Source of the DNA: an uncultured Clostridium sp.
Lineage (GTDB): Bacteria; Bacillota_I; Bacilli_A; RF39; UBA660
Direction: 5' to 3'
Assembly: GCA_964456325.1 (NCBI GenBank)
Contig: CAYVZW010000001.1
Location: 1-29,279 of the forward strand
DNA: 29,279 nt
Both the position numbers and the translations under genes were made by a program. The notes under the pieces are model-generated. The model did not search any database. It saw only the letters and a program-made list of their open reading frames with translations, and was not told the DNA's origin. Positions 3,054 through 23,334 of this stretch are shown piece by piece (position 1 is the first letter of the stretch; the number at the start of each line of letters is the position of its first letter).

Positions 3054-4205
3054 TTGAAAAAGATTTTTTTGACAATTTTATTAATAATAATTTGTATTGT
3101 AAAAGTTAATGCATCTGTAGATTATACTCCAAATGCAAAAAGTTCTATATTGATTGAAGCAAGTACAGGGAAAATATTATATGAAAAGAATATAGATGAA
3201 AAGAGAAGCCCTGCATCAATGACAAAAATAATGACTTTATTATTAACAATGGAAGCAATAGAAAGTGGAAGAATCAAATTAGATGATCAGGTATTTATTT
3301 CTAAGAATGCTTCTAGTATGGGTGGAACACAAATATTTGTACAAGAGAATACTTATGTAAGTGTTGAAAATTTAATAAAGGGAATGGGTATCGCTTCAGC
3401 TAATGATGCTGCGGTAGCTATGGCAGAGTATATTGGAGGTACTGAAGAAAATTTTGTTAATATGATGAATGAGAGGGCAATTGAACTTGGATGCAAAAAT
3501 ACAAATTTTATGAATCCACATGGATTAGATGAAGAGAATCATTATACAACTGCATATGATTTATCATTGATAGCAAAAGAACTTGTAAAACATGAATATG
3601 CAATTAATATAACAAGTACATATGAAGACTATATTAGTGTCTCTGGTCAGAACCATTGGTTAGTGAATACAAATAAACTTGTAAAATTCTATAAAGGAAT
3701 AGATGGCTTAAAAACAGGATATACAGATAATGCTTTGTATTGTTTAACTGCAACAATGCTTAAAAATGATATGAGACTTATTAGCATAGTAATGGGAGTA
3801 GATACAAAAGATCATAGAAGTAGTGATACAGTTTCTTTATTAGAATATGGATATAGTATGTATGGAAGTAAAATTATAATTGATAAGAATAAATATGAAG
3901 GAAAAACTTATATATCAAATAGTAATAATAGAGAAGTAAAATATTATTTAAAAGATGATGTAAAATTGATAGTGGATAAAAATACAAAAGATATTGAGTA
4001 TAAAATAGAAGAAAAAATAGATAAGTTAAAAGCACCATTATCAAAGGATTCTACGATTGGGACACTATATTTAAAAGTTGAAGATCAAACATACGAATAT
4101 GATTTAATAATAAAGGAAGATGTTGTTAAGTCAAATTACTTTAGAACTATAGTTAATCTATTTGGTGATGTAATAAATGGTAAAGTAAACACTATATTAA
4201 AGTAG
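3054..4205 (+). CDS. D-alanyl-D-alanine carboxypeptidase (peptidase S11, DacF/DacB-like)
   Basis: Signal peptide; ASMTK (SxxK), SAND (SxN), LKTGYT (KTG); TTG start after AGGTGA. Confidence 0.93.
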   Translation: MKKIFLTILLIIICIVKVNASVDYTPNAKSSILIEASTGKILYEKNIDEKRSPASMTKIMTLLLTMEAIESGRIKLDDQVFISKNASSMGGTQIFVQENTYVSVENLIKGMGIASANDAAVAMAEYIGGTEENFVNMMNERAIELGCKNTNFMNPHGLDEENHYTTAYDLSLIAKELVKHEYAINITSTYEDYISVSGQNHWLVNTNKLVKFYKGIDGLKTGYTDNALYCLTATMLKNDMRLISIVMGVDTKDHRSSDTVSLLEYGYSMYGSKIIIDKNKYEGKTYISNSNNREVKYYLKDDVKLIVDKNTKDIEYKIEEKIDKLKAPLSKDSTIGTLYLKVEDQTYEYDLIIKEDVVKSNYFRTIVNLFGDVINGKVNTILK

Positions 4206-4213: not shown

Positions 4214-4321
4214 AACTTCTATTTTTGAATTTTTAGTAAAAGTGAAAAATTCAATTTTATGTTTCTAATATTATTTAACTATTATATAAAAATGATGTAT
4301 AATGATAATGGAGGTAATAAG

Positions 4322-4972
4322 ATGAAAAAAATATGGAAAGGAATTAATAAAAGAAAATATCTAGATTACTTAATTAAAGGAATTTATGCAGGAATATTAA
4401 TTGGAATTGGAGGAACTATTTTTTTATCACTTGATAATAAAATAATGGGATCTTTTCTATTCTCAATAGGTTTATTAATGATATGTATGTACGGAATGAA
4501 CTTATATACTGGTAAAGTAGGATATGTTCTTATTAATAAAGTTGATTATATTTGGGAATTACTTATATCATTAGTTGGAAACTTTATTGGAACATTCTTA
4601 GTTGGATTCCTTATGAGAAATACTAGATTTATTGCATTAAGTGAAAAAGCATTAACTATATCAAATGCTAAATTAAATGATAATTTACTTAGTATATTTA
4701 TATTATCATTGTTCTGTGGAATGCTTATGTATATTGCTGTAAATAACTATAAAAAAGTATCTGGAGAAATTGGAAAATATATAGGTATATTTCTATGTGT
4801 AATGGTATTTATACTATGTGGATTTGAACACTGTGTTGCGAATATGTATTATTTTACAGTAGCTAACGTATGGTCTCTTAAAACATTCTTATACTTATTA
4901 ATAATGATATTAGGAAATAGTGTTGGTTCAATAATAATTGCATTTTTCTACAATAGATATTATAAAAACTAA
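4322..4972 (+). CDS. Formate/nitrite transporter (FNT) family channel
   Basis: GIYAGILIGIGG, LYTG, NFIG, FILCGFEHCVANM; start moved to ATG 4322 behind GGAGG. Confidence 0.9.
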   Translation: MKKIWKGINKRKYLDYLIKGIYAGILIGIGGTIFLSLDNKIMGSFLFSIGLLMICMYGMNLYTGKVGYVLINKVDYIWELLISLVGNFIGTFLVGFLMRNTRFIALSEKALTISNAKLNDNLLSIFILSLFCGMLMYIAVNNYKKVSGEIGKYIGIFLCVMVFILCGFEHCVANMYYFTVANVWSLKTFLYLLIMILGNSVGSIIIAFFYNRYYKN

Positions 4973-4984
4973 TTTTTAATTAAC

Positions 4985-5026
4985 AAAAACATCTAATAAT
5001 TTAATTATTTAAAATTAGGTGTTTTT
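4985..5026 (+). terminator. Probable intrinsic terminator after FNT gene
   Basis: AAAAACATCTAAT / ATTAGGTGTTTTT stem with 16-nt loop. Confidence 0.65.
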
Positions 5027-5105
5027 ATTTGTCATAATTTGATGCCTCAAAAAAAAGTGTTTTCACATAAAAAAGGTAATAATTAAGTAGAAGGGAGGAA
5101 ATGGA

Positions 5106-6296
5106 ATGAAAAAAAGTCTATTTGCTATATTATTACTTTTGATAAGTATAAATACTGTTAATGCTTATACTTATTCAAGTTATAGTGAAGAATATCCTGA
5201 AGGGGTAAATGAAATTCTAATAGAAAGAGAGGTAAGATATAAATGGTACAAAGAAACTATAACAGATATAGAATATTTACCTAGAAGTCAGTTCGGAAAT
5301 AAAGAGTATGATTTAAATGATTTTATTTATTCAAATGAAAGTGAAGAGACAATGGATAAAATTGAAAGCACTGAAGACAGGATAGTCACACAAGAATATA
5401 AATCACATACATTTTCTGAAGATGATATTAATCACGTATTAATAAGTGACATGTATTATCAAAGTAGAGTGTACTTTAGCGAAATTGAAGTGTATGACAC
5501 GAATACTAATAAGAAAATAGAATATACTTTTGAAAATGAATATAACGATATTTATCATAACGATATATTAAATGATGGTGAGACTAACTTATATATGGAA
5601 GTATATGCTCCAATGAGGATATCTTTAAACTTAGGCAAAAAGTACAATATGAATAATTTGTTAGTAAAAGTATATTATAAGTCTGAAGGAACTGAGTACA
5701 AGAGATTTACTAATATGTTTGCTTATGGAATAAATCTTGGTTTAGCATTTCAATATAACATAGTTGGAGATTGTCCTAATGGATGTGTTTTCTCTTTACA
5801 AAAAGATTCTTCATACAAAGGAACACTTACACATACAATACCATTTTATAAATATAACGATAAATTATATAAAACATATAATGTGAACAAAGAATATGAA
5901 AATGACTACTATAAAGAATTAGATGGTTATGTTAAAGATGAAGAAACTAAAACCATATTCTATAGATATATTACAGATGATCATTATTATATAGATTTAG
6001 ATGGTAATTTAGTTAATATTGAAAGTGGATATTGCGATAAAAACTATTGCTCATACATAAGAATAAAGAAAGAAGAAGTATCAAGCCCTGTAATAGAAGA
6101 TATTTCAAGTACTATAGATATTATACAAAATCCTAAAACTTATGATGACATTGATAGATATTTATTAAGCGGTATTATTTGTACTGCAGTAATATTATTA
6201 ATAACCATTGGAACTATATTACTTAAAAAATATGTAAAAAAAAGTCACACGAATAAAATATCTAAATTTGTCGAAATTCACAAATTGGATCAATAA
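5106..6296 (+). CDS. Secreted/surface protein with C-terminal NPKT motif and TM anchor
   Basis: Signal peptide ending VNA; acidic Tyr-rich body; NPKTYD, hydrophobic helix, basic tail; GGGAGG RBS. Confidence 0.8.
   Translation: MKKSLFAILLLLISINTVNAYTYSSYSEEYPEGVNEILIEREVRYKWYKETITDIEYLPRSQFGNKEYDLNDFIYSNESEETMDKIESTEDRIVTQEYKSHTFSEDDINHVLISDMYYQSRVYFSEIEVYDTNTNKKIEYTFENEYNDIYHNDILNDGETNLYMEVYAPMRISLNLGKKYNMNNLLVKVYYKSEGTEYKRFTNMFAYGINLGLAFQYNIVGDCPNGCVFSLQKDSSYKGTLTHTIPFYKYNDKLYKTYNVNKEYENDYYKELDGYVKDEETKTIFYRYITDDHYYIDLDGNLVNIESGYCDKNYCSYIRIKKEEVSSPVIEDISSTIDIIQNPKTYDDIDRYLLSGIICTAVILLITIGTILLKKYVKKSHTNKISKFVEIHKLDQ
6267..6276 (+). promoter_or_regulatory. Candidate Spo0A box (TTTGTCGAAA)
   Basis: Perfect TGNCGAA core at 6269-6275, about 50 bp upstream of the SpoIIAA-like start. 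Confidence 0.55.
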
Positions 6297-6324
6297 TGTA
6301 GTAAAGTTATATTCAGGTGATGAA

Positions 6325-6669
6325 ATGTCTACAGATATAGAGTTTAGGAAAGGAATATTGTTTGTAAGAATTAAAGGTATTTTAGTAGGAAATAAAGTAA
6401 GAAAATTTGAAAGTGAGGTTATTCCAATATTATTAGGACTAGAAGCTAAAAATGTAACTCTTAATTTATATGATGTTAAACTTATAGATAAAAGAGGACT
6501 TGATTCAATAATTAAGTTATCAGAGTTAGTTAATAATAAGAATAAAGGTAAGTTGGCTATTTGCGAAATCAATGAAAATATTTCAAATAACTTTGCACAA
6601 AGTGATGTATTTGAATATTGTTTTAGAACAAAAAATGAACTTACATCGTTAGGAGTGTTTTCTATATGA
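6325..6669 (+). CDS. STAS-domain anti-sigma antagonist, SpoIIAA-like, lacking the phospho-acceptor serine
   Basis: GILFVRIKG, VTLNLYDVKLID.RG, GKLAIC..N, SDVF pattern of SpoIIAA; DSSG reads DKRG; start at ATG 6325 after AGGTGA. Confidence 0.85.
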   Translation: MSTDIEFRKGILFVRIKGILVGNKVRKFESEVIPILLGLEAKNVTLNLYDVKLIDKRGLDSIIKLSELVNNKNKGKLAICEINENISNNFAQSDVFEYCFRTKNELTSLGVFSI

Positions 6670-7295
6670 TAGATACTATTATTGAAGAATGTGATGGACT
6701 TATTTATTCAATAGCGTCTCAATATAAAAATAATTATAATATAGAAGATTTATATCAAGCTGGATGTATTGGTGTAATGAAAGCATATAAAAACTTTAAT
6801 GGAAATTTAAATGTTAAATTCTCTAGTTATGCTTATAAATATATTGTTGGCGAAATGATTGATTACATAAGAAAAGATAGGAATATTAAAGTAAGTAATG
6901 AATATTATGATGTATATAAAAGATATGAAAAGACTAAGAATCTTTTAAGAAATAGATTTTGTAGAGAACCTAAATTCCAAGAAATATGTGAATTCATGGG
7001 ACTTAATGAACAAGAACTATTATGTATAATTGAAAGCACTGCATTTACTAAAAGCATAGAACAAGAAGAAATGATAGAGTCTTATGTTAGCGAAGATGAT
7101 AAACTAATAAATCGTTTAGCACTTGACGCAGAACTTGAAAATATTGAAGAGCCTGCTAAAAGCATAATTAAATATAGATACTATTATGGAATGTCTCAAC
7201 AAGAAACAGCAAGTATAATGGAATTATCTCAATCAAGAATTTCAAGAGAGGAGAGTCATGCTCTTAAAAGAATAAAAAGTAAAATAGTTGCATAA
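6666..7295 (+). CDS. RNA polymerase sigma factor, SigF/SigG/SigB subfamily
   Basis: EDLYQAGCIG.MKA...F....KFSSYA...I.GE...YIR, REP...EI, region 4 YYYGMSQQETA..MELSQSRISREE; ATGA overlap with STAS gene. Confidence 0.9.
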   Translation: MIDTIIEECDGLIYSIASQYKNNYNIEDLYQAGCIGVMKAYKNFNGNLNVKFSSYAYKYIVGEMIDYIRKDRNIKVSNEYYDVYKRYEKTKNLLRNRFCREPKFQEICEFMGLNEQELLCIIESTAFTKSIEQEEMIESYVSEDDKLINRLALDAELENIEEPAKSIIKYRYYYGMSQQETASIMELSQSRISREESHALKRIKSKIVA

Positions 7296-7310
7296 AAAAT
7301 GCAACTTTTT
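7286..7310. terminator. Terminator between convergent genes
   Basis: AGTTGCAT-AAAAA-ATGCAACT then TTTT. Confidence 0.8.
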
Positions 7311-7971
7311 AGTTGCCTTTCTTTCTTTTAATAAGAGCAGATATAATATAACCAAGTATTCCTGCTATAACACCTACGACTATTATTTGATTCCTTCTAC
7401 TATCAAAGAAACCTTCTAATTTAATCTCACTGTCATTAATTTTAAAACTCTTTAATAAAGTTTTTGCTTCACTTGATGTTTGTGCTTCTTCAGTAGTAGT
7501 CGAGTATGTTAATGTTGTAATATAGTTTTCAGTTGTAATAACATAATTCTTTTGATACATATCATATCCAAACGAATCTTTTGTTGGCCATGTAGCAGTA
7601 TAAGTAAGAGCGGAATAATCATTTAATTTAGTGATTTCCAAATCACTTACTTGAACAGTAATGTCATATTCACTAAGCTCTGTAGCAATTGAATTTTCAA
7701 TTGTTTTCTTATAATCTTCTAAATCAGTTTTTGTAAACTTATCAACATTTTGCTTTTTAGTTGCAGGATTCTTTTCGATAGTTACAAAAATACTTGGAGA
7801 ATTTTCAGCATTATTACTTTCCCAAACATAAGTATTATCAGTTTGTTCTAATTCTTTATAAGTATCAGGAATATCAATACTAAAATAATCATTTTCATAA
7901 GCACAAACTACGTTAGGTAGTAGTAATAAACATATTATTAACATTGTTTTTTTAATAAACATATAATTCAC
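7309..7971 (-). CDS. Exported protein with C-terminal TM anchor, possible PsbP/DcrB-like fold
   Basis: Signal peptide; FSIDIP..Y, IFVTIE, ALTY, YITTLTY, LLKSFKI pattern; C-terminal TM plus KRKK; only - strand gene. Confidence 0.65.
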   Translation of the reverse strand: MNYMFIKKTMLIICLLLLPNVVCAYENDYFSIDIPDTYKELEQTDNTYVWESNNAENSPSIFVTIEKNPATKKQNVDKFTKTDLEDYKKTIENSIATELSEYDITVQVSDLEITKLNDYSALTYTATWPTKDSFGYDMYQKNYVITTENYITTLTYSTTTEEAQTSSEAKTLLKSFKINDSEIKLEGFFDSRRNQIIVVGVIAGILGYIISALIKRKKGN

Positions 7972-8006
7972 CTTAAAAACATTATATCATATCTTACATA
8001 TTTTAT

Positions 8007-8034
8007 TTGATTTTAGTAATTAAAATGTTATAAT
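8007..8034 (+). promoter_or_regulatory. SigA-type promoter
   Basis: TTGATT-16 bp-TATAAT with TGn extension. Confidence 0.65.
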
Positions 8035-8056
8035 TTTATTATAGAGAGGAAAAATT

Positions 8057-9523
8057 ATGAAAAAATCTTTATTTATAGTACTGTGTTTAGTATTTAGTGT
8101 GGTTTCTATTAAAGCTACTTCATTTGTAAATAGAAATAGTGCAGTTACCTATAATAATAAATATATTCTTGACTTTAATAATTATAAAGCCTATATTATT
8201 TATAATAAAACCTCAACTGCCGAGATTCCATTTTATTTTTCCACAAATAGCAATATAGTGAGTAAATATGTCAATGGTGGTTTTCTATGTTTAGCAGAGT
8301 ATAAAATAGCTGGAAGCAATTTATCATATTTATTTAATCCTAATGGATATTGGATGATGGACGAAAGCGGAGAAGATAGTTACATAGTAATTAATAATGA
8401 TAATGGATATGGCCTAATCAATAAAAATGACATTTCTATGGTAAAAGATACGCAATTTATAAAGAAAAATACACAAGTTACCGGTTCTGGATCATATTCT
8501 AACCCTTGGAAGTTTGTTAAAATACCTAGTAGTGTTTCGTACAACATCTCATCAACAATTAACGGAGCTTTTCCTACTGAAACAGGAAATATTGATTATG
8601 GTGAAGATGCGAAAATAACAATTAGTATATCAAGTAACTATACTTTTAATAATATGACGTACTCTTGTGGAAATACTTTATCTGAAAAAGAAATTTCTTC
8701 TGATGGAAGAACATTAACACTGTCATTTAAAGAGGTAGTTAATAACATAGTTTGTACTATAACTCCAAAACTTAATGTATTCACGGTATACTTTAATATA
8801 AATAATTCAAATGGTGGTAGTGTGTCTCCTTCGACTATTAGTGTGACAAATGGTAAACAATATAACACATTACCAGTGGCATCTTTGAATTCACAATGCC
8901 AATCATTTGATGGGTGGTACACATCGTCAAGTGGTGGAACACAGATTCTTTCAAACACAATTGTTTCTTTGAGCAACAATCAAACTCTATATGCTCATTG
9001 GTTATCAAATACAAGTGGAGGAACATGGGGAAATTGTCTTCCGTCATATATGTCTGGATCGTATGCGAGTGGAACAATGTATAATTCGTGTGGAGCAAGT
9101 CAGTCTTGTTCTGTAAGCTGTTCCTACACAGGAACATATTATGATAATGGAACTTGTGGTAATTATTACTATAATTATAATTGTGGAGGATATTCTTTTT
9201 CAACATATGCAGGGTATCAAGAATGTGTTGTTATTCCTACATGTACTGTTGATATAGGAAATCATTATCCAACATGTGGGGTTGCTGGAGATTTTGAAAT
9301 AGAAGGGTATGCTGATACAAATATTACTTCATGTTCATGGTCTGGATTAAAATCCGGAAACAATTGTGGAGAAGCATGGGGAGAGTTGTGTTATATGTGT
9401 GATAATGCTATTATCGGAGTATATCCAAGAGGTACTTGGTGTAATAAAAATAATACTTTAACGTTAAATGTATGTAATTCAGCAGGATGTGGTAGCTGCA
9501 GTAACTGGTATTATCCTAATTAG
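8057..9523 (+). CDS. Multi-domain secreted surface protein with InlB B-repeat (Listeria-Bacteroides repeat) and Cys-rich C-terminus
   Basis: Signal peptide; FTVYFN..GG......V..G..Y..LP......FDGWYT...GG......TLYAHW repeat; 17 Cys in the last ~170 aa. Confidence 0.8.
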   Translation: MKKSLFIVLCLVFSVVSIKATSFVNRNSAVTYNNKYILDFNNYKAYIIYNKTSTAEIPFYFSTNSNIVSKYVNGGFLCLAEYKIAGSNLSYLFNPNGYWMMDESGEDSYIVINNDNGYGLINKNDISMVKDTQFIKKNTQVTGSGSYSNPWKFVKIPSSVSYNISSTINGAFPTETGNIDYGEDAKITISISSNYTFNNMTYSCGNTLSEKEISSDGRTLTLSFKEVVNNIVCTITPKLNVFTVYFNINNSNGGSVSPSTISVTNGKQYNTLPVASLNSQCQSFDGWYTSSSGGTQILSNTIVSLSNNQTLYAHWLSNTSGGTWGNCLPSYMSGSYASGTMYNSCGASQSCSVSCSYTGTYYDNGTCGNYYYNYNCGGYSFSTYAGYQECVVIPTCTVDIGNHYPTCGVAGDFEIEGYADTNITSCSWSGLKSGNNCGEAWGELCYMCDNAIIGVYPRGTWCNKNNTLTLNVCNSAGCGSCSNWYYPN

Positions 9524-20790: not shown

Positions 20791-23334
20791 ATGAAAAAGA
20801 ATAGGGTATTTAATAAAAATGATTTAATTAATATATTAGTATTAACATTTATATTTATAGTTATTATTGTTTTAACATTAAGAAATGAATTGATTTGGGG
20901 TTCAGAGTTAGACTGGATAGATCAGCATTCAGTTATTCCAGAATACTTTAGAACATTATTTTATGATACACATAATTTATTACCTAATTTAGCATTGAAC
21001 TTAGGGTCAGGACAAAATATTTACAACTTTGCTTATTATGGGCTTTTAAATCCAATAATAATGTTATCTTACTTATTGCCATTTATAAGTATGAGAGATT
21101 ATGTAATATATTCAACTATTTTGCTTGTATATTCATCTGTAATTTTATTTTATTACTTTTTAAGAAGTAATAAATATAATGAAAAAGTTTCTTTCTTGAC
21201 TGCATTATCATTTTTAACAGCTAGTCCATTATTATTTCACTCACATAGACATATTATGTTTATAAATTATATGCCATTTTTAATACTTGCTTTAATTGGA
21301 GTTGATAAATACTTTGAAAAAGATAATAAAATCTTATTAATATTTTCAATACTAATGATAATATTAATGAGTTTCTACTACAGCATTTCATCAATAATTT
21401 GTATTGTTGTATATGGAATATATAAGTATCTTAGTATCAATAAGAAGATTACATTTAAATCATTTATGAAAGACGGTTTTAAATTTATATTACCAATATT
21501 TATCGCAGTACTTATTTCTTCAGTACTTATACTTCCGGAAATGTATGCTATATATGCTGGAAGAATGGGCATAAGTGTCAAACTCACTATATTTGATTTA
21601 TTAATTCCTAATATAAATATTACATATTTACTATATAATCCATATGGAGTGGGATTAACATGCATTTCAGTAGTGGCATTAGTATCATTATTCTTTAATA
21701 AGAAAAAAGAAAATAGATTTTTATTTACTATTTTAACATTATTAATAATATTTCCAATATTCATTTATGTTATAAATGGATTTATGTATGCTGATTCAAA
21801 AGCATTGATACCATTTTTACCTTTATACTCACTAGTAATATCAATATTTATTGATAACTATTTCAAAAATAAAATAGAAATTAATAAAGTGGTAATAATA
21901 ACAATTATTATTGCAATTCTTTGCTATATTTTAAAAACATATAAAAGTGTATATTTATTTTATGAAATAGCTTTAACACTTATAGTAATATTTATAACAT
22001 ATAAAAGGAAATATCATGAAGTATTCTATATTTATTTAACTATAATATTTGTATTATTTTCATTAATTGCGAATAGTTATGATAAATTAATTAGTAAAGA
22101 TGATAATATTTATACAAATGATATAAAAGAAAAAGAATTAATAGATAATATAACCAATAATGATAAAGGTATGTATAGAATAACAACCCTAGTGGATAAA
22201 AAACATACTTCAAATTCAGTATTTAGTAATATAGATATGTATCAAGATACAATATATTCATCAATATATGATGCTGGATATAATAAATTCTATTATGATG
22301 TTTTTAATAATCCAATACAATCAAGAAATAGAATACTTACAACACCAAGTGATAACATACTATTTTTAATGTTTATGGGAAACAAGTATTTATTAAGTGA
22401 GGAAGAATTAATTGGTTATACAGAGTATGAAAAAAATGATTCTATTACTTCCTATGTAAATGAAGATGTGCTTCCATTTATGTATGTCACTAATAATACA
22501 TTCAGTGAAAGTGAATTTAATAATTTATCATTTCCATATTCAAATGAAGTATTATTAAACTATGTTGTTACAAATGATGGAAAAAGTACTAAAAGTAGAA
22601 CAAATATTCATGAATTTGAAGTATCAAAAGCTGTATTTAAAAATGTTACAGTGACTAAAAACATTGAAGGTTACACATTAAGCGCTAAAGAAAATGCTAC
22701 AATAAATATTGATATAGATGAAAAAGCAAAAAATAAAATAATACTAATTAAATTTGATATGGATTTAAAACAAAGTTGTAGAAAAGGTGATCAAGCAATT
22801 ATAATAAATGGTCAAATAAACAAACTAACTTGCAAAGAATGGAAGTATTATAATTCAAATACAGTGTTTACTTATGTATTATCAAACGCTAATATTAATT
22901 CATTAAACATTGAACTCTTTGAAGGCAACTATGTAATAAGTGACATTAAACTATATTATTTGGATTATGATGACATTAAGAATATAAATGATAAAGTAAC
23001 TGAAGTAATTATAGATAAAGACAAAACTAAGGGAGACTATATTTATGGAACAATAAATGTAGAAGAGAATGATTCATATTTAGTAACATCAATTCCATAT
23101 CAAAAAGGTTTTATAATATATGTTGATGGAAAAGAAGTGACATATGAAAAAGTAAATACAAGTTTTATTGGATTTAAAATAGATGAAGGAATGCATAATA
23201 TTGTATTTAAGTATACTTCACCATTGAAAAAAGAAGGAATAGCCCTTTCAATAGTTGGTTTAATTGGTTTAATAATAATTATAATAAGAAGTAGGAGTAG
23301 TAAAAATGAAAGAAAATATAGAACTATTAAATAG
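20791..23334 (+). CDS. YfhO family GT-C membrane glycosyltransferase
   Basis: D...QH, LG.G.N....FAYYGLLNP, many TMs, large extracellular loop, C-terminal SIPYQKGF..YVDG, IDEG.H.I.F.Y and last TM. Confidence 0.9.
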   Translation: MKKNRVFNKNDLINILVLTFIFIVIIVLTLRNELIWGSELDWIDQHSVIPEYFRTLFYDTHNLLPNLALNLGSGQNIYNFAYYGLLNPIIMLSYLLPFISMRDYVIYSTILLVYSSVILFYYFLRSNKYNEKVSFLTALSFLTASPLLFHSHRHIMFINYMPFLILALIGVDKYFEKDNKILLIFSILMIILMSFYYSISSIICIVVYGIYKYLSINKKITFKSFMKDGFKFILPIFIAVLISSVLILPEMYAIYAGRMGISVKLTIFDLLIPNINITYLLYNPYGVGLTCISVVALVSLFFNKKKENRFLFTILTLLIIFPIFIYVINGFMYADSKALIPFLPLYSLVISIFIDNYFKNKIEINKVVIITIIIAILCYILKTYKSVYLFYEIALTLIVIFITYKRKYHEVFYIYLTIIFVLFSLIANSYDKLISKDDNIYTNDIKEKELIDNITNNDKGMYRITTLVDKKHTSNSVFSNIDMYQDTIYSSIYDAGYNKFYYDVFNNPIQSRNRILTTPSDNILFLMFMGNKYLLSEEELIGYTEYEKNDSITSYVNEDVLPFMYVTNNTFSESEFNNLSFPYSNEVLLNYVVTNDGKSTKSRTNIHEFEVSKAVFKNVTVTKNIEGYTLSAKENATINIDIDEKAKNKIILIKFDMDLKQSCRKGDQAIIINGQINKLTCKEWKYYNSNTVFTYVLSNANINSLNIELFEGNYVISDIKLYYLDYDDIKNINDKVTEVIIDKDKTKGDYIYGTINVEENDSYLVTSIPYQKGFIIYVDGKEVTYEKVNTSFIGFKIDEGMHNIVFKYTSPLKKEGIALSIVGLIGLIIIIIRSRSSKNERKYRTIK

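What the first reader, a model, noticed from the sequence alone, without database searches (positions are those of the whole stretch)
5106..7295. Minimal spoIIA-like module: surface protein + serine-less STAS + SigF-like sigma, with no SpoIIAB
Seen: the STAS gene is coupled to the sigma gene (ATGA) with nothing between them. Its phosphorylation motif DSSG reads DKRG (6487-6498) and the GELDHH segment reads GILVGN. The sigma lacks the N-terminal region 1.2 and has changed recognition segments (YKYI for VPMI; SQSRISREE for SQVQVSRLE). No terminator separates them from the upstream TM-anchored surface protein. Known: SigF is controlled by SpoIIAA/SpoIIAB partner switching via phosphorylation of SpoIIAA Ser58. 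Inference: a kinase-independent derivative in which STAS acts directly on the sigma or relays a signal from the surface protein, probably with new promoter specificity. This is the best candidate for an undescribed system here.
Basis: partly seen in the sequence, partly recalled or inferred. Interest (0 to 1): 0.78.

Follow-up and report, generated by a model that had tools for sequence, protein, structure and literature searches.

The report
Sigma-F operon without its kinase
This is the operon that starts spore-specific gene expression in an uncultured small-genome bacterium of the order RF39. It keeps sigma-F and its small STAS partner, but the whole order has lost the SpoIIAB kinase/anti-sigma factor, the SpoIIE phosphatase and the phosphorylated serine, so the textbook sigma-F switch cannot work here.

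Summary
A 114-aa STAS gene (6325-6669) overlaps a 209-aa sigma gene (6666-7295) by ATGA. DSSG reads DKRG and GELDHH reads GILVGN.

It is the spoIIA operon of an RF39 (family UBA660) bacterium, not a new kind of module. The sigma falls with SigF of related genomes and apart from SigG. The genome also holds Spo0A, SigH, SpoIIGA-SigE, SigG, half of sigK, SpoIIR and SpoVAC.

- SpoIIAB and SpoIIE were not found in 121 genomes of the order.
- Relatives in the same class, including a 0.9-Mb genome, have both, plus an invariant DSSG.
- A Spo0A box (TGTCGAA) lies 30-91 nt upstream of the STAS start in 37 of 40 loci.
- In five species of this genus the STAS gene is missing and the same box sits directly before sigF.

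The surface protein has its own conserved upstream motif and no shown link to the pair. New promoter specificity is not supported.

How sigma-F is held in check is unknown. The STAS is conserved but dispensable.

Published work already lists RF39 as lacking spoIIAB and spoIIE. This scan has reported the same thing in at least eight other RF39 genomes. It is a new variant of a known system, of moderate interest.

The parts
3054..4205 (+). DacF-like D-alanyl-D-alanine carboxypeptidase; context gene, in the position dacF holds upstream of spoIIA in related genomes
   Evidence: Pfam Peptidase_S11 at 264 bits plus PBP5_C. A dac gene lies upstream of spoIIAA in outgroup loci L079-L085 and in several RF39 loci.
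4985..5026 (+). Terminator-like hairpin after the formate/nitrite transporter gene; separates that gene from the surface-protein gene
   Evidence: Fold of -12.3 kcal/mol, z -3.57, followed by a run of T.
5106..6296 (+). Lineage-specific membrane-anchored surface protein ('surf'): signal peptide, beta-rich ectodomain, C-terminal membrane helix, short tail. A neighbour of the operon, not shown to belong to it.
   Evidence: No Pfam or NCBIfam match. AlphaFold2 mean pLDDT 81, with no informative fold match in PDB or AFDB clusters. A homologue lies upstream of the STAS gene in 31 of 51 RF39 loci. Its own conserved upstream motif is AGTGTTTT...TAATAAT.
6262..6276 (+). Spo0A box (TGTCGAA at 6269-6275, within TCTAAATTTGTCGAA) inside the 3' end of surf; probable promoter region of the STAS-sigF operon
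   Evidence: It is the only TGTCGAA in the window. The same box lies 30-91 nt upstream of the STAS start in 37 of 40 RF39 loci. In five STAS-less loci of the genus it lies 45-55 nt before sigF. Spo0A is present in 5 of 5 genomes of the genus.
6325..6669 (+). SpoIIAA-derived STAS protein, 114 aa, without the phosphorylatable serine (DKRG at 6487-6498)
   Evidence: Pfam STAS 35.5 bits. Best PDB matches are SpoIIAA chains. The N-terminus is nearly identical to SpoIIAA of the related genome G030. It is the only STAS gene in the genome.
6666..7295 (+). Divergent SigF orthologue, 209 aa, overlapping the STAS stop by ATGA
   Evidence: NCBIfam spore_sigF is the best model at 138.8 bits, below the cut-off of 321. 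Best PDB match is SigF 1l0o_C. It falls in one clade with other RF39 copies, sister to a SigF that keeps SpoIIAB and apart from SigG. ATGA overlap occurs in 24 of 39 loci.
7286..7306 (.). Two-way terminator closing the operon and the convergent gene
   Evidence: 8-pair stem followed by a run of T on both strands. Fold of -13.8 kcal/mol, z -3.57.
7309..7971 (-). Convergent gene for a 220-aa protein with a signal peptide and a C-terminal membrane helix, function unknown. It holds this position in 18 of the 19 other loci of the genus; in other UBA660 genera spoVAC-spoVAD lie here.
   Evidence: tblastn matches next to the sigma gene in 18 of the 19 other genus loci; none in L023. spoVAC and spoVAD lie downstream of sigF in locus L049, and ORFs of the same sizes follow sigF in many other UBA660 loci. 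In this genus the spoVA genes lie elsewhere.

Best explanation
This is the spoIIA operon of an RF39 (UBA660) bacterium. A Spo0A-box region drives a SpoIIAA-derived STAS protein and the orthologue of the forespore sigma factor SigF. The rest of the partner switch is gone from the whole order: the anti-sigma kinase SpoIIAB, the phosphatase SpoIIE, and the serine they act on. Shown: the identity of the two genes, the order-wide absence of the kinase and phosphatase, the decay of the motifs that are invariant in the SpoIIAA of relatives that keep SpoIIAB, the conserved Spo0A box, tight translational coupling, and retention of the downstream sporulation cascade. Inferred: sigma-F is controlled mainly by Spo0A-dependent synthesis. 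The STAS protein survives as a non-phosphorylated, dispensable modulator made in step with the sigma. It most likely binds sigma-F itself or an unidentified partner. The neighbouring surface protein is not part of the switch.
For: - Identity: STAS and SpoIIAA matches. SigF is the best model and best PDB match. In the tree all 51 RF39 copies form one clade (support 97), sister to SigF of G030, which keeps SpoIIAB, and apart from the SigG clade (support 99).
- Synteny: dacF lies upstream; spoVAC-spoVAD lie downstream in other genera.
- Cascade kept: SigE, SigG, the N-terminal half of SigK, SigH and SpoIIGA in the own genome. Spo0A 5 of 5, SpoIIR-like 5 of 5, SpoIVA full length in 3 of 4, SpoVAC 5 of 5.
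- Loss: PF13581 matches only ORFs of at least 200 aa (all but one over 390 aa) in 50 genomes of the genus. TIGR01925 is 0 of 121 over cut-off in the order. TIGR02865 is 0 of 121. PF07228 is 0 of 5.
- Positive control: SpoIIAB is over cut-off in 40 of 151 genomes of the same class, including a 0.9-Mb genome, and SpoIIE-like proteins are in 5 of 5 of those tested.
- Serine: the Ser58 column varies (R, K, S, Y, N, G). GELDHH, DSSG and GRYNQ are nearly invariant in outgroups and decayed in RF39.
- STAS still constrained: one intact copy per genome next to sigF in 83 of 121 genomes. Population SNPs are 4 synonymous to 2 nonsynonymous.
- Spo0A box in 37 of 40 loci. ATGA coupling in 24 of 39.
Against: - No expression or interaction data exist. 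No RNA run holds the locus.
- The STAS gene is missing in 5 of 20 species of the genus, and is degenerate or absent in some other genera, while sigF stays. Sigma-F branch lengths do not differ with or without it. This argues against an obligatory STAS-sigma-F pairing.
- A non-homologous anti-sigma factor elsewhere in the genome cannot be excluded.
- The own genome is only 70.65% complete, although the order-wide searches used genomes at least 90% complete.
- Whether RF39 forms spores at all is disputed: predicted yes in PMC10868615, and given 0% probability by a classifier in PMC12536801.
Confidence: 0.8

Rival explanations
1. The partner switch has collapsed to two parts: the STAS protein binds sigma-F directly, without phosphorylation, as its anti-sigma factor or chaperone, and is relieved by dilution, proteolysis or a ligand.
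For: One intact STAS copy per genome, always next to sigF. Translational coupling by ATGA in 24 of 39 loci. The motifs that are invariant in SpoIIAA of relatives with SpoIIAB have decayed, while other positions stay conserved. No other partner was found.
Against: The STAS gene was deleted in 5 of 20 species of the genus with sigF and its Spo0A box kept. It is degenerate in other genera. Several of the conserved positions are ancestral and shared with SpoIIAA of G030.
Confidence: 0.3
2. A non-homologous anti-sigma factor encoded elsewhere has replaced SpoIIAB, and the STAS protein still acts as its antagonist without phosphorylation.
For: The STAS is retained under constraint. From general knowledge, not tested here: non-phosphorylated STAS antagonists exist, such as the redox-controlled RsfA of Mycobacterium tuberculosis acting on UsfX.
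Against: No small GHKL protein was found in 50 genomes of the genus or 121 of the order. No extra conserved gene lies in or beside the operon across genera.
Confidence: 0.2
3. The pathway is a relic: RF39 no longer sporulates, and STAS-sigF are decaying or reused leftovers.
For: SigF scores far below its model cut-off (138.8 against 321) while SigG and SigE score close to theirs. The STAS is repeatedly lost. Only about two thirds of genomes in the order have the sigma. A classifier gives RF39 0% sporulation probability (PMC12536801).
Against: Reading frames are intact across more than 50 genera. SNPs are mostly synonymous. The Spo0A box is conserved family-wide. Spo0A, SpoIIR, SpoIIGA, SigE, SigG, SpoIVA and SpoVA are retained.
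Confidence: 0.15
4. The surface protein, STAS and sigma form one three-part signalling module, in which the surface protein's cytoplasmic tail signals through the STAS.
For: There is no terminator between the genes. The adjacency is conserved in the genus and in several other genera.
Against: The conserved tail residues (SSFVES) are simply the translation of the Spo0A-box DNA. In other genera the box is intergenic. The surface gene has its own upstream motif. It was not detected in 18 of the 51 RF39 loci. STAS-less species keep the surface gene.
Confidence: 0.05

Closest known systems
spoIIA operon of Bacillus, Geobacillus and Clostridia (SpoIIAA-SpoIIAB-SigF with the SpoIIE phosphatase; PDB 1TH8, 1L0O)
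   Same: Orthologous STAS and sigma genes. dacF lies upstream and spoVAC/AD downstream in sister genera. There is a Spo0A box upstream. The downstream cascade is kept: SpoIIR, SpoIIGA, SigE, SigG, SigK.
   Different: No SpoIIAB, no SpoIIE, no conserved Ser58. The GELDHH, DSSG and GRYNQ motifs have decayed. The STAS gene overlaps the sigma gene directly.
RF39 gene-content survey (Microb Genom 2024, PMC10868615)
   Same: [quoted passage not shown] It predicts spore formation with different regulation.
   Different: That work is at the level of gene presence and absence. It does not mention spoIIAA or sigF, so it does not cover loss of the serine, the Spo0A box or loss of the STAS gene.
Mycobacterium tuberculosis SigF-UsfX-RsfA/RsfB (from general knowledge, not tested here)
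   Same: A SigF-type sigma with a STAS antagonist (RsfA) that is not controlled by phosphorylation.
   Different: An anti-sigma factor (UsfX, SpoIIAB-like) is still present there. No such protein was found in RF39.

Membership tests
SpoIIAA (anti-sigma F antagonist, TIGR02886) | STAS fold | tested here: met
   Pfam STAS 35.5 bits against a cut-off of 22.6. phmmer matches to SpoIIAA structures over residues 2-105.
SpoIIAA (anti-sigma F antagonist, TIGR02886) | Phosphorylatable serine (Ser58 of DSSG) | tested here: not met
   DKRG in the window. The column varies across RF39 and is invariant in relatives that keep SpoIIAB.
SpoIIAA (anti-sigma F antagonist, TIGR02886) | Score above the curated equivalog cut-off | tested here: not met
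   30 bits against a cut-off of 114.75.
SpoIIAA (anti-sigma F antagonist, TIGR02886) | A SpoIIAB partner encoded in the genome | tested here: not met
   0 of 121 over cut-off in the order. Matches fall only in long, histidine-kinase-sized ORFs. The control found SpoIIAB in 40 of 151 genomes of the class.
SpoIIAA (anti-sigma F antagonist, TIGR02886) | First gene of the Spo0A-dependent operon that encodes SigF | tested here: met
   ATGA overlap with sigF. Spo0A box in 37 of 40 loci.
SigF (sporulation sigma factor, TIGR02885) | Sigma-70 regions 2, 3 and 4 | tested here: met
   Region 2 at 58.1 bits and region 4 at 41.2 bits are over cut-off. Region 3 is weak at 15.5 bits.
SigF (sporulation sigma factor, TIGR02885) | Score above the curated equivalog cut-off | tested here: not met
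   138.8 bits against 321.45. It is still the best-scoring model.
SigF (sporulation sigma factor, TIGR02885) | Falls with SigF and apart from SigG in a tree, with spoIIA synteny | tested here: met
   The RF39 clade (support 97) is sister (support 88) to SigF of G030. The SigG clade is separate (support 99). Synteny.
SigF (sporulation sigma factor, TIGR02885) | Held inactive by SpoIIAB | tested here: not met
   No SpoIIAB in the order.
SigF (sporulation sigma factor, TIGR02885) | Directs transcription of spoIIR and sigG in the forespore | not testable with these tools
   Only a hint: GAATA-N18-CAATA lies before sigG in four genus genomes (own, L092-L094) and before spoIIR in two.
Partner-switching module (STAS + GHKL kinase/anti-sigma + PP2C phosphatase) | GHKL serine kinase/anti-sigma factor | tested here: not met
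Partner-switching module (STAS + GHKL kinase/anti-sigma + PP2C phosphatase) | PP2C phosphatase (SpoIIE) | tested here: not met
   TIGR02865 is 0 of 121. PF07228 is 0 of 5. It is present in 5 of 5 relatives that keep SpoIIAB.

The most novel reading that the evidence does not exclude
In RF39 the three-protein sigma-F switch has collapsed to two parts. The serine-less SpoIIAA descendant binds sigma-F directly as a phosphorylation-independent anti-sigma factor or chaperone, so forespore-specific activation is achieved without a kinase or phosphatase.
Probability: 0.3. Interest if true: 0.8.

Novelty: new variant of a known kind. Interest (0 to 1): 0.55.

Why it matters
SpoIIAA, SpoIIAB and SpoIIE are treated as a universal core of endospore formation. 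One classifier even counts spoIIAB among the genes present in all predicted spore formers (PMC12536801). RF39 is a large, widespread and uncultured order. It keeps Spo0A, the four sporulation sigma factors, SpoIIR-SpoIIGA signalling, SpoIVA and SpoVA, but drops the kinase, the phosphatase and the phosphosite.

If these bacteria sporulate, cell-specific activation of sigma-F has another solution, and gene-based predictors of sporulation misjudge the order. If they do not, this is a clear case of a developmental regulon kept or reused after its switch was lost. Species of one genus with and without the STAS gene form a natural experiment for telling these apart.

Tried and rejected
- **Fold of the surface protein.** The model is confident (pLDDT 81), but there was no informative match in PDB or AFDB clusters. 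The language-model look-up gave only weak discoidin-like leads at or below 0.86.
- **RNA evidence.** No RNA run holds the locus, so there is no transcription start or expression data.
- **Number of STAS losses in the genus.** The best tree needs four. No bootstrap tree allows one. The AU test does not reject a single loss (p 0.10), so this is unresolved.
- **Faster decay of region 3 in particular.** Rejected. RF39 SigF is less like outgroup SigF than RF39 SigG is like outgroup SigG in every region, and the gap is largest in region 2.
- **Short N-terminus as a consequence of losing SpoIIAB.** Rejected. Relatives that keep SpoIIAB also have a SigF of 207-236 aa.
- **Local decay or misassembly.** Rejected.
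- **Co-fold of STAS and sigma.** Not attempted. The structure tool folds single chains and returns no inter-chain confidence.
- **Experimental reports of RF39 spores.** None found.
Full report
**What is there**

The window is contig 1 of a 1.08-Mb metagenome-assembled genome, 70.65% complete, with about 25% G+C. On the + strand the genes run in this order:
- a DacF-like carboxypeptidase (3054-4205)
- a formate/nitrite transporter (4259-4972)
- a 396-aa protein with a signal peptide and a C-terminal membrane helix and no family match (5106-6296, 'surf')
- a STAS gene whose likely start is ATG 6325, behind AGGTGA (6325-6669)
- a 209-aa sigma-70 family gene (6666-7295) that overlaps the STAS stop as ATGA

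A convergent gene for another membrane-anchored protein follows (7309-7971).

Terminator-like hairpins lie after the transporter gene and right after the sigma gene. None lies between surf and the STAS gene.

The STAS protein's best solved relatives are SpoIIAA chains. In those alignments DSSG pairs with DKRG (6487-6498) and GELDHH with GILVGN. The sigma's best solved relative is SigF in the SpoIIAB complex 1L0O.

Contigs from runs of three other studies cross the surf-STAS-sigma junctions with only point differences. The arrangement is therefore not an assembly artefact.

**What the sigma is**

The same genome encodes a SpoIIGA-like protease followed by a SigE-like sigma, a SigG-like sigma, the N-terminal half of a SigK-like sigma, and a SigH-like sigma. 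The window's sigma scores best on the SigF model, at 138.8 bits against a cut-off of 321.

I built a tree with the short sigmas of 51 related loci, SigF and SigG of genomes in the same class, and the RF39 SigG copies. The short sigmas form one clade (support 97). That clade is sister (support 88) to the SigF of a 0.9-Mb relative (G030) that still has SpoIIAB. It is separate from the SigG clade (support 99).

In other genera of the family the sigma gene is followed by spoVAC and spoVAD, and a dac gene often lies upstream. This is the layout seen in the outgroup operons. The sigma is therefore the SigF orthologue. The STAS is the SpoIIAA orthologue, and its N-terminus is almost the same as that of G030's SpoIIAA.

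**Which organism**

One related locus comes from Clostridium sp. CAG:914. A recent paper lists CAG-914 under RF39, family UBA660. The locus is held by bioreactor and wastewater metagenomes from 2019 to 2025.

**Loss of the kinase and the phosphatase**

| Search | Scope | Result |
|---|---|---|
| HATPase_c_2 (PF13581) | own genome; 50 genomes of the genus | matches only in ORFs of at least 200 aa, all but one over 390 aa |
| SpoIIAB (TIGR01925) | 121 genomes of the order, 120 of them at least 90% complete | 0 over cut-off |
| SpoIIE (TIGR02865) | the same 121 genomes | 0 matches |
| PP2C domain (PF07228) | 5 genomes of the genus | 0 matches |

The method does find these genes in near relatives. 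In the same class, 40 of 151 genomes have a roughly 150-aa SpoIIAB over cut-off, including G030. All five such genomes tested have a SpoIIE-like protein. Their operons read spoIIAA (with FMDSSG)-spoIIAB-sigF.

The kinase, the phosphatase and the phosphosite therefore occur together in relatives, and all three are missing in RF39.

**State of the STAS protein**

Across the order 83 of 121 genomes have a STAS match. All but one have a single match, in a small ORF; where the sigma's position was also listed, the STAS lies right beside it.

The column that aligns with Ser58 varies (R, K, S, Y, N, G and others). The motifs GELDHH, DSSG and GRYNQ are nearly invariant in the outgroup SpoIIAA proteins and are not conserved in RF39. 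Other positions stay conserved, and some of these are shared with G030.

The STAS stop and the sigma start overlap as ATGA in 24 of 39 loci. In the rest they overlap by a few bases or lie at most 12 nt apart. Point differences among the four runs laid on the locus are mostly synonymous: surf 7 synonymous to 1 nonsynonymous, STAS 4 to 2, sigF 1 to 0, and the convergent gene 5 to 1.

**The STAS is dispensable**

In 5 of 20 species of this genus there is no STAS gene, and surf is followed directly by sigF. On the sigma tree the best reconstruction needs four losses and no bootstrap tree allows a single one. The AU test does not reject a single loss (p 0.10). Sigma branch lengths do not differ between species with and without the STAS.

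In a few other genera the gene upstream of sigF is barely recognisable as a STAS or is missing.

**Promoter**

The only TGTCGAA in the window (6269-6275) lies inside the last codons of surf. A TGTCGAA box, usually within TCTAGTTTTGTCGAA, lies 30-91 nt upstream of the STAS start in 37 of 40 RF39 loci. The background rate in these loci is about 0.1 per kb. In the five STAS-less species the same box lies 45-55 nt before sigF, as expected from a clean deletion of the STAS gene.

Spo0A itself is present over cut-off in 5 of 5 genomes of the genus. The conserved tail 'SSFVES' of surf in this genus is the translation of the box. In other genera the box is intergenic, so the constraint is on the DNA.

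**Rest of the pathway**

A SpoIIR-like protein is present in 5 of 5 genomes. SpoIVA is full length in 3 of the 4 other genomes tested; it was not found in the incomplete own genome. SpoVAC and SpoVAE-like genes are present in 5 of 5, at another place in this genus.

sigG in four genomes of the genus (own, L092-L094), and spoIIR in two, are preceded by GAATA-N18-CAATA, which resembles SigF/SigG-type promoters. This is only a hint. It gives no support for a new promoter specificity.

**The surface protein**

It is a beta-rich, lineage-specific protein (pLDDT 81) with no informative structural match. It has its own conserved upstream motif. Homologues were detected upstream of the STAS gene in 31 of 51 RF39 loci. 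Nothing ties it to the switch beyond adjacency and the lack of a terminator.

**Mechanism**

Shown: sigma-F here cannot be controlled by SpoIIAB, SpoIIE or phosphorylation of SpoIIAA.

Inferred: its synthesis depends on Spo0A, and the STAS is an accessory, non-phosphorylated modulator. Odds for each reading:

| Reading | Odds |
|---|---|
| STAS binds sigma-F directly | about 0.3 |
| STAS antagonises an unidentified, non-homologous anti-sigma factor | about 0.2 |
| STAS is a largely dispensable remnant, with sigma-F set by Spo0A-driven transcription alone | about 0.3 |
| The pathway is vestigial | about 0.15 |

**Novelty**

A published survey already lists spoIIAB and spoIIE as reduced or absent in RF39 and predicts spore formation with different regulation (PMC10868615). 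It does not discuss spoIIAA or sigF. A classifier paper treats spoIIAB as present in all predicted spore formers and gives RF39 0% sporulation probability (PMC12536801). This scan has reported the same operon in at least eight other RF39 genomes.

New in this window:
- the family-wide Spo0A box
- loss of the STAS gene within one genus, with the box kept
- replacement of spoVAC/AD downstream of sigF in this genus
- the evidence against a role for the surface protein

Noticed in passing
own genome, contig C21:5650-6096 (locus L032:1414-1860, minus strand): A 148-aa ORF matches only the N-terminal half of SigK (model positions 8-151 of 235). It lies next to two 320-330-aa ORFs that are similar to each other and whose family was not checked. 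This may be a sigK gene split by an inserted element, as in Bacillus subtilis, or a truncated gene.
   Followed up: partly
window 7309-7971 (minus strand): A 220-aa protein with a signal peptide and a C-terminal membrane helix, with no family match. It holds the convergent position after sigF in 18 of the 19 other genus loci, where other genera have spoVAC-spoVAD.
   Followed up: partly
window 8057-9523: A secreted 488-aa protein with a Listeria-Bacteroides repeat (Flg_new) and a C-terminal region rich in Cys, Gly, Tyr, Ser and Asn.
   Followed up: no
window 5030-5105 and the matching regions of L013, L016, L021, L023, L024: A conserved motif AAAAAGAAGTGTTTT, followed about 20 nt later by a TATAAT-like hexamer, lies upstream of the surface-protein gene across the genus. 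Which sigma reads it is unknown.
   Followed up: partly
own genome C15:15250-15372 (sigG upstream), C4 about 22900-22950 (spoIIR upstream), and L092-L094, L102: A shared GAATA-N18-CAATA motif lies before sigG and spoIIR. It is a candidate SigF/SigG-type promoter of this genus.
   Followed up: partly
window 4900-8100: Near-identical sequence is held by bioreactor and wastewater metagenomes of several studies from 2019 to 2025. This RF39 species therefore lives, or persists, outside an animal gut.
   Followed up: partly
L077 (G030:C3:38298-41702): A 0.9-Mb genome of the same class keeps the full spoIIAA-spoIIAB-sigF-spoVAC layout and a 772-aa SpoIIE-like protein. Genome reduction alone therefore does not explain the loss in RF39.
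   Followed up: yes
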